From Carboxylicivirga sediminis (GTDB lineage Bacteria > Bacteroidota > Bacteroidia > Bacteroidales > Marinilabiliaceae), in contig NZ_JAGTAR010000014.1 of NCBI RefSeq assembly GCF_018156225.1, forward strand, positions 1 to 32,000: a DNA stretch of 32,000 nucleotides, read 5' to 3'. Shown one piece after another: positions 2,652 through 31,568 of the stretch. Positions within the stretch are counted from its first letter, which is position 1. The number at the start of each line of letters is the position of its first letter. A program made the position numbers and the translations under genes. The notes below the pieces were generated by a model. The model searched no databases and was not told the origin of the DNA. It saw only the letters and a program-made list of their open reading frames with translations.

Positions 2652-2941
2652 AATTCTTTTTTTTGGTATTAGAGAAAATATAGAATGTATTGTGACGAAT
2701 GCTCAATAGCATGCACTATTTGCTAATGAGTGTCAGGTGAGTTGTTAAGCGATATCAGCAGTTTTGATTTATATTTATGATAATAATCAGAGCATGCAAA
2801 ACTATCATTTTTTATCATAAATCAAGCGCAAAAAGGTTTGACATTGCGTACTATTCTTTTGCAGTGTTCCTTAGGAGATAATTAGAAAATAGTAATCGGT
2901 AGTATGTGGCCGGAAGAGCCTGGTGTAACTAAAGTGAGGGC

Positions 2942-2966
2942 AAAAAAAAAGCCCCGATAACGGGGC
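2942..2966 (-). terminator. rho-independent terminator of the P5C dehydrogenase gene
   Basis: On the minus strand this reads gccccg-ttat-cggggc followed by nine T. It starts 9 nt after the stop codon at 2975-2977. Confidence 0.85.
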
Positions 2967-2974
2967 TTATAGAA

Positions 2975-4603
2975 TTATTCTGCTAAGAAAGGATATTTGA
3001 AATCGTGTGGCGGAACAAAGTTTTCCTTAATGGTGCGTGGGCTTACCCAACGCATCAGGTTAATGGCCGAACCAGCCTTATCGTTTGTACCTGAACCACG
3101 AGAACCACCAAATGGCTGCTGACCTACAACGGCGCCTGTTGGCTTATCGTTGATGTAGAAGTTACCAGCTGTGTCAACCAATCGCTTGGTAGCTTTTTCA
3201 ATAATGTAACGATCCTGTGCAAAGATACAACCTGTTAATGCATAGATAGAAGTAGAGTCAAGGATATCCATTGTTTCCTCAAACTTGTTATCGTCGTATA
3301 CATAAATGGTTAATACCGGGCCGAACAACTCTTCTTCCATCGTGCGGTACTTAGGATTGGTTGTAAGTATGATAGTAGGCTCAATAAAATAACCAACCGA
3401 CTTATCATGACCACCACCCAGAATCACTTTTGCTTCATTACTTTCTTTTGCTTCGTCAATAGCACCAGCTAACAAGTCAAAAGAAGTCTCATCGATAACA
3501 GCGTTTACAAAGTTGCTGAAATCTTCAGGAGGTCCCATTTTTACTTCTGCCATCTGCTCTTTTACATAGCCAAAAATCTCTTCCCAGCGACTGGCTGGCA
3601 TATAGGCGCGAGAGGCAGCTGAACATTTCTGTCCCTGGTATTCGAAGGCTCCACGAACAATAGCAGTAGCCACCCCTTTAGCATCGCATGATTTGTGTGC
3701 CAGAATGTAATCTTTACCACCTGTTTCACCTACGATACGTGGGTATGTTTTGTATTTGGCAATGTTATCACCAATGGCTTTCCAGGTGCTTTGGAATACA
3801 CCCGTAGAACCGGTAAAGTGGAAACCTGCGAAATCAGGGTGAGAGAAAATCTCTTTAGCAGCCACAGGACCCGATGCATACACCAGGTTGATAACACCAT
3901 CAGGTACACCTGCTTCTTTGAATAACTTCATTAAGAAATAAGCCGAGTAAACAGCAGTCTTCGATGGTTTCCACACAGTAACGTTACCCATCATGGCAGG
4001 AGCTGTTTGCAGGTTGCCAGCAATAGAAGTAAAGTTAAATGGTGTGAGTGCAAATACGAAACCTTCCAAAGGACGGTACTCAACACGATCCCAGATGCCA
4101 GGCGCCGATTCAGGCTGACCAGCATAAATTTCGGTCATGTATTGTACGTTGAAGCGGAAGAAGTCAGCCAGCTCACAGGCTGAATCAATCTCGGCCTGGA
4201 ATGCATTTTTTGACTGACCTAACATGGTAGCAGCATTAATTAACTGACGGTAAGGACCGGCCAATAAATCGGCTGCTTTTAAGAAGATAGCCGCACGGTG
4301 CTCCCAGCTCAGGTTAACCCACTGCTTACGCGCTTTCAATGCTGCGTCAATCGCCATGTGTACATGAGTCTCATCTCCCTGGTGATAATGACCTAGAGTA
4401 TGGGCGATTTCGTGTGGTGGGTGAATACGTTTTGTATTACCTGTTCTGATTTCTTCACCACCAATAAACATAGGGATGTCAAGCTCTTGCGAGCGAAGCT
4501 CTTCCAACATCTTTTTTAACTCGGCGCGCTCTGGTGTGCCCGGAGCGTAGCTTTTAATCGGCTCATTAACAGCCGGCGGTACTTGAAAAATTCCTTTTGG
4601 CAT
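2975..4603 (-). CDS. pruA: L-glutamate gamma-semialdehyde (1-pyrroline-5-carboxylate) dehydrogenase, 542 aa
   Basis: Aldehyde dehydrogenase superfamily with the catalytic Cys motif EYQGQKCSAASR and the Glu motif VGETGGKD. The N-terminal FQVPPAVNEPIKSYAPGTPER...HPPHE pattern is typical of monofunctional P5CDH. I chose ATG 4603 (MPKGIF); the track extension adds 11 aa. Confidence 0.9.
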   Translation of the reverse strand: MPKGIFQVPPAVNEPIKSYAPGTPERAELKKMLEELRSQELDIPMFIGGEEIRTGNTKRIHPPHEIAHTLGHYHQGDETHVHMAIDAALKARKQWVNLSWEHRAAIFLKAADLLAGPYRQLINAATMLGQSKNAFQAEIDSACELADFFRFNVQYMTEIYAGQPESAPGIWDRVEYRPLEGFVFALTPFNFTSIAGNLQTAPAMMGNVTVWKPSKTAVYSAYFLMKLFKEAGVPDGVINLVYASGPVAAKEIFSHPDFAGFHFTGSTGVFQSTWKAIGDNIAKYKTYPRIVGETGGKDYILAHKSCDAKGVATAIVRGAFEYQGQKCSAASRAYMPASRWEEIFGYVKEQMAEVKMGPPEDFSNFVNAVIDETSFDLLAGAIDEAKESNEAKVILGGGHDKSVGYFIEPTIILTTNPKYRTMEEELFGPVLTIYVYDDNKFEETMDILDSTSIYALTGCIFAQDRYIIEKATKRLVDTAGNFYINDKPTGAVVGQQPFGGSRGSGTNDKAGSAINLMRWVSPRTIKENFVPPHDFKYPFLAE

Positions 4604-9057: not shown

Positions 9058-9115
9058 TTAGTCAGTAGTCAGAAGTGAGAAGACAGAAGTGATTCGTCTA
9101 TTGCCTGCTGACTAA
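9058..9115 (+). other. intra-operon stem-loop in the nqrA-nqrB spacer
   Basis: ttagtcagtag (9058-9068) pairs with ctgctgactaa (9105-9115), 11 bp with one mismatch. It encloses a purine-rich loop carrying a duplicated agaagtga (9071-9078 and 9085-9092). Confidence 0.4.
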
Positions 9116-28892: not shown

Positions 28893-29954
28893 TTAATCCT
28901 CCTTTATCTCTTTCTTATTTAAAAACTCCAGGTTCCATATTTTCTCGGCATTCCTGCCAATTAGCCAGAAGGTAAACCCCAGTATCAGGAAGAAGATGGT
29001 TTTATGTGTGGCATCCCAGAAATACTCGAAGAATTTGGTGTATAGATTGATGAACAAAAAGGTGATGCCAAAGCTTCGACTGGTGTAATCGTCGAATTTA
29101 AGCCCATAGGCAATGGCCGCAATGGCAAACAGGCCAAAGATAAGACCCCAACCAAATAGGCTTATCTGTTTAATTTGCTCCCACTCATCCCAATCGCCGT
29201 AATTGCCAAAGATGGACAGTATCCATAGCGCAATAAATAAATACAGCAGACCAAGTGTGTAGGTCGATTTCTGAAAAGGTCTCAGTGGCTTAAATCTGCT
29301 AAATACAAAGCTTAGAGCAGTTAATGCCAGACCAAATACCACAAAGCGCAGGGGGTAATTCATGCCCAGGTAATAGGCCCCCCAACCCGATATATAGCCG
29401 GTTTCGGTGCCAAACCAGGCACCCAGCGACAGAATGGCAAACACCCACACGAGCTTTGAGGGAAATAGCAGGCCAATGCACCCGTATACGATGGTGGCAA
29501 TCAGAAATAGGACGGAGAAATGACCATCGCCACTATCCAGCGCTTTGCCCAGGTAGGCAATAGCTGTGGCAGTAGATAGTATGCCAATCATCACAATAAA
29601 TTCGTTGCTAAACACCTTTTGGGGATGTCTCTTTTGGCGCATAAAAGCCCATAGGTAAAGCATAGAAGCAATGGCCGCAAATGACAGGCACAGCACTACA
29701 TCTGATGAGGTGAAAAAGCGCTCTATCAGCTCCATCAGCAACTCGTCGGCCACCAGAGCACTAAAAGATATGATGACGCAAACAATGGAAATCCAAAAAG
29801 AATAGATCGCCAACTTTTTCCATTCAAAGCGGCGCGTTTCCACCGAGCCGCTTAGGCTGGCCCTGGTGGCGTCATCAATTATATCTGATGCATGCCAATG
29901 CTCAATCGCCTCATTGATAACTTTTCCTTGCTTTTTGCTAACGCTTAGTTTCAT
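28893..29954 (-). CDS. polytopic membrane protein, DUF2157-like (353 aa)
   Basis: A soluble N-terminal ~45 aa (INEAIEHWHASDIIDDATRASL) is followed by about 9-10 hydrophobic helices. The family assignment is tentative and from memory. Confidence 0.65.
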   Translation of the reverse strand: MKLSVSKKQGKVINEAIEHWHASDIIDDATRASLSGSVETRRFEWKKLAIYSFWISIVCVIISFSALVADELLMELIERFFTSSDVVLCLSFAAIASMLYLWAFMRQKRHPQKVFSNEFIVMIGILSTATAIAYLGKALDSGDGHFSVLFLIATIVYGCIGLLFPSKLVWVFAILSLGAWFGTETGYISGWGAYYLGMNYPLRFVVFGLALTALSFVFSRFKPLRPFQKSTYTLGLLYLFIALWILSIFGNYGDWDEWEQIKQISLFGWGLIFGLFAIAAIAYGLKFDDYTSRSFGITFLFINLYTKFFEYFWDATHKTIFFLILGFTFWLIGRNAEKIWNLEFLNKKEIKED

Positions 29955-30541
29955 AGTGCTGGGTTTTGAGGGCGCTTAGTGGTGCCTGTTCCGCAATTTA
30001 GATGTTTTGTATTAACTTATTTCTCTCAACGAGATTTTATAGAGTATCTGATAGCTCAAACAACTTCACCGGCTTTCGCCCTTTAAAACTAACAAAAATA
30101 CCATACAATATATTAGAAACAGAAAGTGAATGGTAACATAATGAATGTGTAGTGCCATCTGAAAAGTCAATGATGCTTAGTCAGGATAAGGGCTGAGGTG
30201 GAGCTTATTTGGTAAATGACTAATTATAGCTATGTATTGCAATACTAATCTTTAAAATAAATTAGGGCTTTGTGATACTGCGGGATTTAATTCCATTGCG
30301 CAGTGCTTAGCTAAGAAGTATAGGAGTTAATGTTCGATTTTATATTCATCAGTATTTCTAATTACATAAAAAAGTATATCTTGTGTGACATTAACCATTG
30401 TTACCATACCATGAAACCCTTAACCCAAACAGCTAAACAAGCTATTTTAGCTATCGAAAAGTTCCCCGTTCGTGCCTTACAAAACTCACTATCCGTTTTA
30501 ATTCATCCAAGGTCATTTGGCCAATCCCTTCTGCTGTCAGG

Positions 30542-30750
30542 TGGCGTGGGTGAATACGCAAAGCTTCCTTTTTCAGAAAAACATGCTTTGCGTGTTTACG
30601 CAAAGATTCGTTTTTACAAAAATTAACATTTGCGGATTTACGCAAGGCTTCCTTTTTCCAAAAGATGGCCATGCGGGTTTACGCAAAGCGAATTTTTTTG
30701 CCTGGGCAGACTTTGCGTGTTTACGCAAGCATTTTTCAACCATGTAATAA
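30542..30750. repeat. five head-to-tail 41-42 bp units with a TTTACGCAA core, a CTTTGCGT-N4-ACGCAAAG palindrome and phased T/A tracts
   Basis: The TACGCAA core starts at 30555, 30597, 30639, 30680 and 30722, giving spacings of 42, 42, 41 and 42. The palindrome is perfect (8+8) in unit 2 (30586-30605) and has 6 Watson-Crick pairs in unit 5. Units 3 and 4 keep 5-bp and 4-bp cores, and the left arm of unit 1 is degenerate. T5-T7 tracts start at 30569, 30611, 30653, 30693 and 30732. Confidence 0.85.
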
Positions 30751-30782
30751 CCTTTTATCAGTATAACTTTAAAATCAATGTT

Positions 30783-31508
30783 ATGAGAAGAATAACTAAA
30801 ATTGTAAGCGATATCCGAATCGCTGAAATCGCCAATCTGGGCGACAATCTTCTGAAAGAGTTGGCCGAACTGACGCCTGAAGATGCGCATTTAAAGGCCA
30901 TACAAACAGAAGTGGAACAAAATAACAGCCGGCTGGTAATAGCCATTAACAGAGACATGGCAGAGTCGGAGTTGGAAGAGTTGGATGCACGGCGCGATAG
31001 CACCTATCGCTCATTGGCCTACCTGAATAAAGGGTACCTGCACCACCCAGATGCACCGGTGTCGGAAGCGGCAGCGCAGGTGGAGCGTATACTTGAGAAA
31101 TATGGTTTTGATATGATTAATGCCAATTACGGCGCTGAGTCTGCCTATCTCGAATCGCTTTTTAATGACATGGGCAGTATTGAGATTGCGCCTGCACTGG
31201 AGCTGTTGCCCGGCGAAATTGCCCTGCTCACAAGGTTAAAGGATGAGCAGAGTCGATTTAAAGTGGCCGAGCAGCGCTTTTATAATGCGCAATCGCAAGA
31301 CAAGCAAGCTGATAGTGCTACGCAAGTCAAGCGTGAGCTACTCAAACTCATTAACAATAAACTAGTGGTGTATTTACGCGCCATGATGCAGGTGAATCCA
31401 CAGCCATATGACGATTTGTGTGCCAAAGTTGCCTTGCTTATTGACAAAGCCAATAGCCTGGTGAAACGGCGACGTAGCACCGAAGAGCTGCAAACCAAAA
31501 GCAATTAA
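30783..31508 (+). CDS. all-helical hypothetical protein, possibly DUF6261-like (241 aa)
   Basis: The ORF from ATG 30783 (MRRITKIV) has coding-like composition. The track's upstream extension (30630-30782) is read-through of the repeat array. The general pattern (D.RRD..YR.L, ESAYLESL, LKDEQ..F) resembles Bacteroidota DUF6261 proteins as I remember them. Confidence 0.6.
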   Translation: MRRITKIVSDIRIAEIANLGDNLLKELAELTPEDAHLKAIQTEVEQNNSRLVIAINRDMAESELEELDARRDSTYRSLAYLNKGYLHHPDAPVSEAAAQVERILEKYGFDMINANYGAESAYLESLFNDMGSIEIAPALELLPGEIALLTRLKDEQSRFKVAEQRFYNAQSQDKQADSATQVKRELLKLINNKLVVYLRAMMQVNPQPYDDLCAKVALLIDKANSLVKRRRSTEELQTKSN

Positions 31509-31536: not shown

Positions 31537-31568
31537 AAGGGTGCCGTGCATGGTGCCCTTTTCCTTTC
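31537..31568 (+). terminator. stem-loop terminator after the 241-aa gene
   Basis: aagggtgcc (31537-31545) pairs with ggtgccctt (31552-31560) with two G-U wobbles and a 6-nt loop, followed by ttcctttc. Confidence 0.55.

What the first reader, a model, noticed from the sequence alone, without database searches (positions are those of the whole stretch)
30542..30750. Phased 42-bp repeat array with a palindromic TTGCG/CGCAA core directly upstream of an orphan gene
Five contiguous units align as follows. U1 30542 tggcgtgggtgaaTACGCAAagcttcctttttcagaaaaaca. U2 30584 tgctttgcgtgttTACGCAAagattcgtttttacaaaaatta. U3 30626 acatttgcggattTACGCAAggcttcctttttccaaaagat. U4 30667 ggccatgcgggttTACGCAAagcgaatttttttgcctgggca. 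U5 30709 gactttgcgtgttTACGCAAgcatttttcaaccatgtaataa. The core recurs every 42, 42, 41 and 42 bp, which is about four helical turns, so every site and every T/A tract falls on the same face of the helix. Each unit holds an inverted repeat (ideal form CTTTGCGT-N4-ACGCAAAG, perfect in U2). In U1-U3 a second small palindrome follows (T5-N2-3-A4-5). The right half-site is better conserved than the left, which makes the array look iteron-like. It ends about 30 bp before ATG 30783. It is not CRISPR-like because the spacer parts of the units are also conserved. Three readings seem possible. (a) It is a cooperative operator, centromere or iteron array for a dimeric DNA-binding protein on intrinsically curved DNA. 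(b) It is transcribed as a series of hairpin plus U-run modules; on the minus strand the hairpin is followed within 3-4 nt by T5 in three junctions, which looks like tandem attenuators. (c) It is a copy-number-variable contingency repeat controlling the downstream gene. I know of no described element with this unit.
Basis: partly seen in the sequence, partly recalled or inferred. Interest (0 to 1): 0.8.

Follow-up and report, generated by a model that had tools for sequence, protein, structure and literature searches.

The report
Phased palindrome array guarding DUF6261 genes
The 42-bp repeats are real and belong to an undescribed, strongly conserved family of palindrome arrays found upstream of DUF6261 genes in two bacterial phyla; each gene copy has its own palindrome "code", which points to a private recognition system between the array and a matching factor.

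Summary
Window 30542-30750 holds five units spaced 42/42/41/42 bp, each with a TTTGCG..CGCAAA palindrome. The downstream gene is not an orphan: it is a DUF6261 (PF19775) protein of Carboxylicivirga sediminis.

About 30 of 36 DUF6261 loci from Marinilabiliales and Ignavibacteria carry a 41-43-bp array upstream. The background is about one such array per 75-240 kb. Every lineage has a different palindrome, and dyad symmetry is kept (80.6% of mirrored positions complementary against 54.6% in shuffles).

In a relative with 76% protein identity the array is 88.6% identical. Third codon positions are 57% identical. Unit number is unchanged.

Two paralogs in one genome (83% protein identity) keep position-specific spacers, but the 4-bp core was replaced in all seven units (16% against 65% identity, p=3e-11). 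That implies a sequence-specific cognate reader.

Coding, contingency-repeat and tandem-terminator readings fail across the family.

Several features favour dsDNA operator sites over RNA hairpins, but not decisively:
- no G·U excess on either strand;
- centres that flip orientation within arrays;
- cores about one helical turn apart;
- A/T tracts at ±15-20 from the dyad.

The only co-inherited gene is DUF6261. It is a helical, acidic protein with a hypervariable N-terminal patch. It is the candidate reader, but this is unproven.

The parts
30542..30750 (+). Array of five units: U1 30542-30583 (degenerate left arm), U2 30584-30625, U3 30626-30666 (41 bp), U4 30667-30708, U5 30709-30750
   Evidence: 88.6% identical to the array of L001 over 175 nt without gaps
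30586..30605 (.). Perfect palindrome of U2, CTTTGCGT-gttt-ACGCAAAG. Equivalent palindromes lie at 30544-30563 (U1, degenerate), 30628-30647 (U3), 30669-30688 (U4) and 30711-30730 (U5)
   Evidence: covariation of mirrored positions across 66 units from 15 arrays
30564..30583 (.). Spacer type GCTTCC-TTTTT-cag-AAAAA-c, with A/T tracts centred 15-20 bp from each dyad. The same type lies at 30606-30625 and 30648-30666
   Evidence: (D2)
30732..30768 (+). Conserved proximal leader or promoter region: TTTTTCAACCATGTAA (30732-30747), also present at the same distance from the ATG in Draconibacterium orientale, and CCTTTTATCAGTATAACT (30751-30768)
30783..31508 (+). DUF6261 gene (241 aa), all-helical and acidic (pI 5.3), with a hypervariable patch at residues 8-10 flanked by conserved K6, R12 and E15
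31540..31568 (+). Intrinsic-terminator-like hairpin GGGTGCC..GGTGCCC followed by a T-run. Homology with L001 ends here, so this is the right border of the conserved module
30374..30425 (+). Conserved block upstream of the array (TTACATAAAAAAGTATATCTTGTGTGACATTAACC...ATG); function unknown (promoter or start of a leader)
30079..30153 (.). Distal conserved block at the left border of the module. It contains a perfect Bacteroidetes -7 box TATTTTTG on the minus strand (30093-30100)

Best explanation
The array is a set of five phased recognition sites for a two-fold-symmetric, sequence-specific factor that is private to this gene copy. It most likely acts on double-stranded DNA next to, or overlapping, the DUF6261 promoter.

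Each 41-43-bp unit has four parts. The first is a variable 4-bp core on each side of a 3-4-bp centre, with the two cores about 9-10 bp apart, roughly one helical turn. The second is a conserved frame, GC-w-w-T...A-w-w-GC. The third is a pair of A/T tracts 15-20 bp from the dyad. The fourth is the period itself, about four helical turns, which puts all sites on one face of the helix. Occupied sites would therefore build one bent nucleoprotein complex that sets transcription of the downstream gene, most simply by autoregulation.

The only gene inherited together with the array is DUF6261, so its product is the candidate reader. Its hypervariable N-terminal segment is the candidate specificity determinant.

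Shown: the array family exists and is linked to DUF6261; it is under purifying selection; palindrome symmetry is kept while the sequence changes; the cores are paralog-specific.

For: Linkage. TRF finds arrays of period 40-44 in 22 of 36 upstream regions (27 kb), and about 8 more are visible by eye. The same search finds 2 in 152 kb of other sequence from the same loci and 3 loci in 710 kb of unrelated metagenome DNA.

Selection. The array is 88.6% identical between relatives, against 75.9% for the coding sequence and 57% for third codon positions.

Symmetry. 80.6% of cells are paired against 54.6% in shuffles (0 of 500 shuffles reach it). The covariation score is 0.683 against 0.208. Slid controls give 33-45%.

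Specific reader. L008 and L010 are paralogs in one MAG with 83% protein identity. Their spacers are positionally conserved, but the core was replaced in all 7 units: 16% identity in the core against 65% in the scaffold, Fisher p=3e-11. Three proteins that are 75-77% identical (alignment) have three unrelated palindromes.

DNA rather than RNA. There is no wobble excess: G:T 17, A:C 27, other mismatches 65. Centres flip AAAC<->GTTT and GTTC<->GAAC within arrays. A/T tracts sit symmetrically at +-15-20 from the dyad. The flank motif AAAAAG(T)GGAGC occurs to the left of the palindrome in most lineages, and as its reverse complement GCTTCCTTTTT to the right in the window type. A -35/-10-like pair (TTGACA-N17/18-TAAATT) lies between the array and the gene in Prolixibacteraceae loci.

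DUF6261 as reader. Protein differences between close pairs with different cores are concentrated in residues 1-20: 46% in residues 1-10, against 13% in pairs that share a core. The tripeptide at 8-10 is the most variable stretch of the folded part, sitting inside a conserved motif.
Against: DUF6261 has no recognisable DNA- or RNA-binding domain, whether tested by Pfam, NCBIfam, a PDB sequence profile or Foldseek. It is acidic, with pI 4.8-5.8.

The centre between the palindrome arms varies from 1 to 9 nt among homologous systems. That is awkward for a rigid DNA-binding dimer and easy for a hairpin loop.

Array polarity relative to the gene is constant, and the left flank is purine-rich on the sense strand. 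This would also suit a transcribed leader.

In the window only about 50 bp separate the array from the ATG, and no canonical TAnnTTTG box lies on the gene strand. The promoter position is therefore unknown.

The N-terminal correlation rests on 3 pairs against 7 non-independent pairs.

Confidence: 0.4

Rival explanations
1. The array is transcribed as part of a long 5' leader, with the start near 30374-30425. Its hairpins are bound by a cognate RNA-binding protein, possibly DUF6261, in the way Cas6/Csy4 or phage coat proteins read a specific stem-loop. Binding would control stability, termination or translation of the DUF6261 mRNA.
For: Stem covariation is strong. The array always has the same polarity and lies directly upstream of the gene. 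The centre or loop length varies from 1 to 9 nt. The window units look like hairpin plus U-run. The plus strand folds at -72.4 kcal/mol, z=-4.6. A conserved block lies upstream of the array. No canonical promoter box lies between the array and the ATG in the window.
Against: There is no G·U enrichment on either strand. Loop sequences are not conserved and flip to their reverse complement. The specificity lies in Watson-Crick stem pairs, not in loops or bulges. The flank motif appears on either side as its reverse complement, which in RNA would be purine-rich in one case and pyrimidine-rich in the other. There is no Rfam match. The predicted MFE pairs units with one another rather than forming local hairpins.
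Confidence: 0.27
2. There is no specific reader. The array is a structural element, for example curved DNA, cruciform-prone DNA, a transcription insulator or terminator stack, or an mRNA-stabilising hairpin series. Its units are kept alike by concerted evolution, and its stems drift freely as long as they stay self-complementary.
For: Different lineages have unrelated palindromes in the same scaffold. Terminator-like modules occur on both strands in the window. A/T tracts recur once per unit, that is about every four helical turns.
Against: In L008/L010 the spacers are heterogeneous within each array yet positionally conserved between the paralogs, so there has been no recent homogenisation. 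The cores nevertheless changed in all units. Terminator polarity is inconsistent across lineages. Most within-array deviations are one-sided and uncompensated. The A/T-tract signal is not specially peaked at 10.5 bp.
Confidence: 0.13
3. The array is the footprint of a mobile or repetitive element (REP/BIME-like, MITE, or a satellite) that happens to lie upstream of the gene.
For: The module of about 1.5 kb sits in different gene neighbourhoods in every species. One locus has an IS200-type Y1_Tnp gene nearby.
Against: The array always has the same position and orientation relative to DUF6261 across two phyla. There is only one copy in the 32-kb window. There is no plasmid or phage match. A transposase is present in only 1 of about 40 loci.
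Confidence: 0.05
4. The repeats encode a 14-residue repeat peptide, or an upstream ORF whose translation matters. An example is the 71-aa ORF from ATG 30408, or the 101-aa gene called through the array in C. taeanensis.
For: 42 bp equals 14 codons. ORFs starting upstream of the array read into it in several Carboxylicivirga loci.
Against: Arrays with a strict 41-bp period exist (L020, L012, L023, L028, L165). In L016 all three plus-strand frames are closed in every unit. The open frames differ between loci and are as long on the minus strand, with no consistent ATG. No protein family matches.
Confidence: 0.03
5. The array is a contingency locus: the number of units changes frequently and switches the gene.
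For: Tandem repeats next to a start codon are the classic setting for this.
Against: Unit number and the odd 41-bp unit are the same in two species with 76% protein identity, and the array is 88.6% identical. The units are not identical enough for frequent slippage: TRF reports 71% matches.
Confidence: 0.02

Closest known systems
sopC centromere of plasmid F (bound by the ParB-family protein SopB)
   Same: Tandem direct repeats of almost the same length: 12 x 43 bp, each carrying a 16-bp inverted repeat that is the binding site of a dimeric protein encoded next to it (PMC3177203, abstract). Related plasmids have their own site specificity.
   Different: There is no ParA or ParB gene here, and no plasmid: the loci are chromosomal, with several paralogous modules per genome. 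The array lies upstream of the gene, not downstream. The neighbouring protein is a helical DUF6261 without an HTH domain.
Operator or centromere arrays of ribbon-helix-helix proteins (omega, ParR/parC, ParG, CopG; from my own knowledge)
   Same: Many short sites sit in phase next to the regulated promoter and are read cooperatively. Specificity is set by a few residues of an N-terminal strand. DUF6261 has an extended N-terminus with alternating conserved and hypervariable residues.
   Different: The N-terminal region shows no sequence similarity to RHH families, either by PDB profile or by Pfam. In the AF2 monomer the N-terminal segment is modelled with confidence as part of the same chain as the large helical bundle. 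The units are 42 bp long, not 7-20 bp.
CRISPR repeat arrays with Cas6-type repeat-binding proteins
   Same: Regularly spaced palindromic repeats whose stem sequence differs between systems and must match a cognate protein.
   Different: The period is 42 bp, not about 60-70 bp. The intervening parts are conserved and are not unique spacers. There are only 4-8 units, no cas genes nearby, and a fixed position upstream of one gene.
REP/BIME clusters and their RAYT transposases
   Same: Short palindromes in tandem clusters with conserved linkers. Palindrome families are specific to a cognate protein gene that they flank.
   Different: These arrays are not dispersed (one array in 32 kb). There is no RAYT gene except by chance in 1 locus. 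All units have the same orientation and a strict period.
Multi-hairpin sponge RNAs (CsrB/RsmZ type) and tandem intrinsic terminators
   Same: A series of similar stem-loops separated by short single-stranded linkers.
   Different: There is no conserved loop motif and no Rfam hit. The strand asymmetry expected of an RNA is absent. The position of the U-run is inconsistent across lineages.

Membership tests
Pfam DUF6261 (PF19775), for the downstream gene | Score above the Pfam gathering threshold | tested here: met
   62 bits against a cut-off of 27, E=8e-17. All 150 homologs carry PF19775.
ParABS / sopC-type partition site | Tandem repeats of about 43 bp, each with an inverted repeat | tested here: met
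ParABS / sopC-type partition site | Adjacent ParA ATPase and ParB (HTH) genes; located on a plasmid or near a chromosomal origin | tested here: not met
   The neighbours differ in every locus and none is ParA or ParB. There is no plasmid match for the DNA or the protein.
CRISPR array | Identical repeats separated by unique spacers of similar length; cas genes nearby | tested here: not met
   The spacer parts are conserved within arrays and between species. No cas-like ORFs lie near the array.
Any Rfam RNA family | Covariance-model score at or above the gathering threshold | tested here: not met
   0 hits at gathering threshold across the window. Only chance-level hits (E>=1) appear in 29900-30900.
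Tandem intrinsic terminators / attenuators | GC-rich hairpin directly followed by a U-run on one consistent strand in all members | tested here: not met
   This is met in the window. In Ignavibacteria-type and other arrays the gene-strand spacer is A-rich, or the U-run lies 6-14 nt away, and the strand differs.
Ribbon-helix-helix operator systems | The binding protein has an N-terminal beta-strand plus two helices detectable by profile or fold | tested here: inconclusive
   There is no sequence-profile hit to RHH proteins, and Foldseek gives no DNA-binding fold. A dimer or DNA complex could not be modelled.
REP/BIME with RAYT | Many dispersed copies per genome and a linked Y1 transposase | tested here: not met
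   There is a single array in 32 kb. Y1_Tnp is present in 1 of about 40 loci. Genome-wide copy number could not be tested.
Plasmid iterons | Direct repeats next to a rep gene, an AT-rich unwinding element and DnaA boxes | tested here: not met
   There is no rep-like gene. The units are palindromic rather than directional.
Protein-coding tandem repeat | Period a multiple of 3 and one conserved open frame | tested here: not met
   41-bp arrays exist, the frames differ between loci, and the minus strand is equally open.

The most novel reading that the evidence does not exclude
DUF6261 modules are self-contained 'private code' systems. A new, non-HTH, helical-bundle protein would read a 4-bp palindromic core through a short hypervariable N-terminal patch. 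Paralogs would be insulated from each other by re-coding every site of a conserved 42-bp scaffold. That would be a new nucleic-acid-binding fold with a simple, evolvable recognition code. The second array type seen in L034 hints that 42-bp palindrome arrays might be a general regulatory architecture of FCB-group bacteria.
Probability: 0.2. Interest if true: 0.85.

Novelty: new variant of a known kind. Interest (0 to 1): 0.68.

Why it matters
The finding gives a function-linked handle on a domain of unknown function that is spread over two phyla. The gene comes with a conserved, easily recognised cis-element whose specificity changes between paralogs.

Examples are L008/L010 and the Draconibacterium and Maribellus trio. 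Such series are ideal for working out a recognition code and for building orthogonal regulators.

Tried and rejected
- **Metagenome scan.** I scanned for TTGCGNNTTTACGCAA.
- **Viral contigs.** No relative of the protein was found.
- **RHH idea.** A profile of the N-terminal 55 residues against PDB and Pfam found nothing relevant.
- **Defence, phage and NCBIfam libraries.** Nothing was found.
- **Strand assignment from wobble pairs.** G:T 17 against A:C 27 shows no significant asymmetry.
- **Within-array compensatory changes.** Only a weak excess was seen, mostly from edge units.
- **Coding and uORF reading.** Rejected.
- **Canonical Bacteroidetes promoter boxes.** They are absent on the gene strand, so the start site could not be placed.
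- **A/T-tract harmonic analysis.** It showed no special 10.5-bp peak beyond the unit period.
- **Automatic hairpin chaining.** Searches were too noisy, so I replaced them with curated registration.
- **Covariance model.** I did not build one, because the variable cores leave too little sequence information.

Full report
**1. The observation.**
The sequence at 30542-30750 is as described. The repeat finder returns five copies spaced 42, 42, 41 and 42 bp. TRF returns a period-42 array, and it is the only one of its kind in the 32-kb window. The exact word TTTACGCAA occurs four times, all inside the array. Unit 2 holds the perfect palindrome CTTTGCGT-gttt-ACGCAAAG (30586-30605), and unit 1 is degenerate on its left side. 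No Rfam family matches, either at gathering thresholds or at E<1.

**2. The gene and the organism.**
The downstream ORF (30783-31508, 241 aa) is a DUF6261 protein: PF19775, 62 bits against a cut-off of 27. It is identical to a hypothetical protein of Carboxylicivirga sediminis. It is therefore not an orphan.
- An AlphaFold2 model built on 30 homologs is confident (pLDDT 90.7). It is entirely helical, with residues 1-12 extended.
- Foldseek finds nothing significant in PDB or BFVD.
- NCBIfam, PHROGs and PADLOC give nothing.
- The proteins are acidic, with pI 4.8-5.8, and carry a short basic C-terminal motif.
- The only paper containing 'DUF6261' is unrelated.

**3. The array is a family trait.**
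I fetched DUF6261 loci by exact-protein look-ups and by one scan of species-representative genomes (39 loci).
- They come from Marinilabiliales (Carboxylicivirga, Draconibacterium, Maribellus, Tangfeifania, Sunxiuqinia, Gaoshiqia, Geofilum and others) and from Ignavibacteria/Melioribacteraceae. There are often several paralogs per genome.
- TRF finds an array of period 40-44 (or a multiple) in 22 of 36 upstream regions, 27 kb in all.
- By eye, the same architecture is present in at least eight more loci whose spacers are too diverged for TRF: L005, L006, L008, L012, L023, L164, L166 and L022.
- The same search finds 2 such arrays in 152 kb of other sequence from the same loci and 3 loci in 710 kb of unrelated metagenome DNA.
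- The flanking genes differ in every species, so the array and the gene travel together as a module of about 1.5 kb. Between the window and L001, homology runs from about 30060 to the terminator at 31540-31568.

**4. Anatomy of the unit.**
I put 114 units from 21 arrays in register on their dyads.
- Mirrored positions 3-8 from the dyad are complementary in 68-89% of units, against 26-45% in shuffles (66% at position 7). All four Watson-Crick pair types occur at positions 3-6.
- On a gap-free alignment of 66 units, 80.6% of cells are paired, against 54.6% in shuffles (0 of 500 reach it). The covariation score is 0.683 against 0.208. Sliding the partner by 1-3 columns gives 33-45%.
- The consensus frame is GC-w-w-T-[NNNN]-centre-[N'N'N'N']-A-w-w-GC.
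- A- or T-tracts of four or more bases sit at -20..-15 and +15..+20 from the dyad. On the left they are mostly A on the gene strand (40% against 12%). On the right they are A or T about equally.
- Periods are 41-43 bp throughout. Several arrays with a 3-nt centre have a strict 41-bp period: L012, L020, L023, L028 and L165.

**5. Selection.**
The comparison is with L001, a metagenome-assembled relative with 76% protein identity.
- The array is 88.6% identical over 175 nt without gaps.
- The coding sequence is 75.9% identical, and third codon positions are 57% identical.
- The relative has the same five units, including the 41-bp one.

This rules out a fast-changing contingency repeat and shows purifying selection on stems and spacers alike.

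**6. The key result: paralog-specific cores.**
L008 and L010 lie in one MAG and encode proteins that are 83% identical.
- Their arrays align unit by unit. The spacers differ from unit to unit within each array but are conserved between the two arrays, so the whole array was duplicated and has not been homogenised since.
- Even so, the core of all seven palindromes differs: GCCC....GGGC against CAAn....nTTG.
- Identity is 16% at positions 3-6 and 65% at positions 7-21 (Fisher p=3e-11).
- Likewise, the Draconibacterium orientale, Maribellus sp. YY47 and M. sediminis proteins are about 75-77% identical (alignment). Their palindromes are CAATG-N9-CATTG, AACGTAC-tca-GTACGTT and GTGGCAAaTTGCCAC.

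Re-coding every site while the scaffold stays is what co-evolution with a sequence-specific reader predicts. It is not what drift plus unequal crossing-over predicts.

**7. DNA or RNA?**
In favour of double-stranded DNA:
- There is no wobble excess at consensus-paired positions: G:T 17, A:C 27, other mismatches 65 of 787 cells.
- Centre sequences flip to their reverse complement within one array, for example AAAC/GTTT in L005 and L008 and GTTC/GAAC in L025.
- The specificity lies in the stem base pairs, whose two 4-bp cores are centred 9-10 bp apart, the geometry of classical dimer operators.
- The flank motif AAAAAG(T)GGAGC stands on the left in most lineages, and appears as its reverse complement GCTTCCTTTTT on the right in the window type.
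- In Prolixibacteraceae loci a TTGACA-N17/18-TAAATT pair lies between the array and the gene.

In favour of RNA:
- Array polarity is constant.
- The centre length is variable.
- The window's units are terminator-like.
- The plus strand folds stably, z=-4.6, although the fold pairs units with each other.
- Canonical TAnnTTTG boxes are absent from the gene strand.

I judge DNA more likely, but the question is not settled.

**8. Who reads it?**
DUF6261 is the only gene that always accompanies the array.
- In close protein pairs with different cores, differences concentrate in residues 1-20: 46% differ in residues 1-10, against 13% in pairs that share a core. Overall the figures are 26% against 20%.
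- Across 116 homologs, residues 8-10 are the most variable stretch of the folded part, at 2.8 bits. They are embedded between conserved K6, R12 and E15.
- This fits a specificity patch, but the sample is small.
- The protein is acidic and has no known binding domain. Profile searches with the N-terminal region find no ribbon-helix-helix or other DNA-binding family.

**9. Readings that fail.**
- Coding or uORF: 41-bp arrays exist, all plus-strand frames are closed in L016, the frames differ between loci, the minus strand is equally open, and there is no consistent ATG.
- Tandem terminators: the presence, distance and strand of the U-run are inconsistent between lineages.
- Contingency repeat: see paragraph 5.
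- Known mobile element, plasmid or phage sequence: there are no matches.

**10. Comparison and verdict.**
The closest known architecture is the sopC centromere of plasmid F. It has 12 direct repeats of 43 bp, each with a 16-bp inverted repeat bound by SopB (PMC3177203). The window's element works like such a multi-site array but is not a member of that family. It has no ParA or ParB, it is not on a plasmid, it has a different neighbouring protein, and it occurs in several insulated copies per chromosome. It is an undescribed variant of the 'phased palindromic site array' kind, with an unusually clear signature of private, re-codable specificity.

Noticed in passing
L034:3425-3794: A second, unrelated 42-bp array (7.3 copies, unit TTCAAAGTTGCTTTTATCAATTGCAAATTCGTTTTTAGGCAG, with a CAATTG/TTGCAA palindrome and A/T tracts). 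It lies about 280 nt upstream of a minus-strand 85-aa Cys-rich peptide gene (2913-3170), which looks like a RiPP precursor. The 42-bp palindrome-array architecture may therefore not be exclusive to DUF6261.
   Followed up: partly
L032:2740-2907: Directly after the terminator of a Geofilum DUF6261 gene, a family-type 41-bp array begins (GTGTAGATACCTACAT + GGCTTCCCGGCAAAAAAGGAC) and runs to the contig end. It is probably the array of a tandem paralog. This gene's own upstream region shows no array.
   Followed up: partly
L001:2757-2777; L016 first unit (about 312 nt before the ATG): The first unit of some arrays carries a different palindrome from the rest. L001 unit 1 is GCTTGCCCAAACCGGCAAAGC, which resembles the L008 core. 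L016 unit 1 is CGGACaaatGTCC, which resembles the L025 core. This could mean cross-regulation between paralogs, or it could be a relic of an older code.
   Followed up: no
L002:2461-2543: A run of telomere-like heptamers (GGTTTAG/GGTTTGG, about 12 copies) lies about 460 bp upstream of the DUF6261 gene of Carboxylicivirga sp. A043. It is absent from the other loci.
   Followed up: no
window 30093-30100 (minus strand), within conserved block 30079-30153: A perfect Bacteroidetes -7 promoter box (TATTTTTG) points away from the DUF6261 gene. It is conserved in L001 although the upstream genes differ. Similar minus-strand boxes lie about 300 bp upstream of the arrays in L005 and L006. It may be an outward promoter belonging to the module.
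   Followed up: partly
window 30408-30626: An ATG at the end of a conserved block opens a 71-aa ORF that reads into the array. ORFs with the same layout exist in L001, L005/L006, L008/L010 and L017, but in different frames. I judged this a by-product of stop-free repeats.
   Followed up: yes
L015, upstream 360-110 nt before the ATG: This array has an 83-bp super-period. The same AATTTATAAATAT palindrome alternates between an A-rich spacer (GCAAGAAAAAGCAAAAAGTGGAGC) and a T/A spacer (GCTTCCTGGATTCAAAAGGA). These are the two spacer types that otherwise distinguish lineages.
   Followed up: no
L166:2480-2914: An IS200-type Y1_Tnp (PF01797) gene lies about 260 nt downstream of the Maribellus sediminis DUF6261 gene. 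It is the only transposase seen near any module.
   Followed up: no
L018, 285-153 nt before the ATG: The Tangfeifania locus has 46-bp non-palindromic repeats (CCCGGTAATCC...GGTTCAGACTTTC) where other loci have the array. It also has two GTTAATCATTTAATTAAAG-type palindromes about 41 bp apart, roughly 650 nt upstream.
   Followed up: no
window 9060-9090: A short 7-bp tandem repeat (AGTCAGA, 4.4 copies) between two ORFs, reported by TRF.
   Followed up: no
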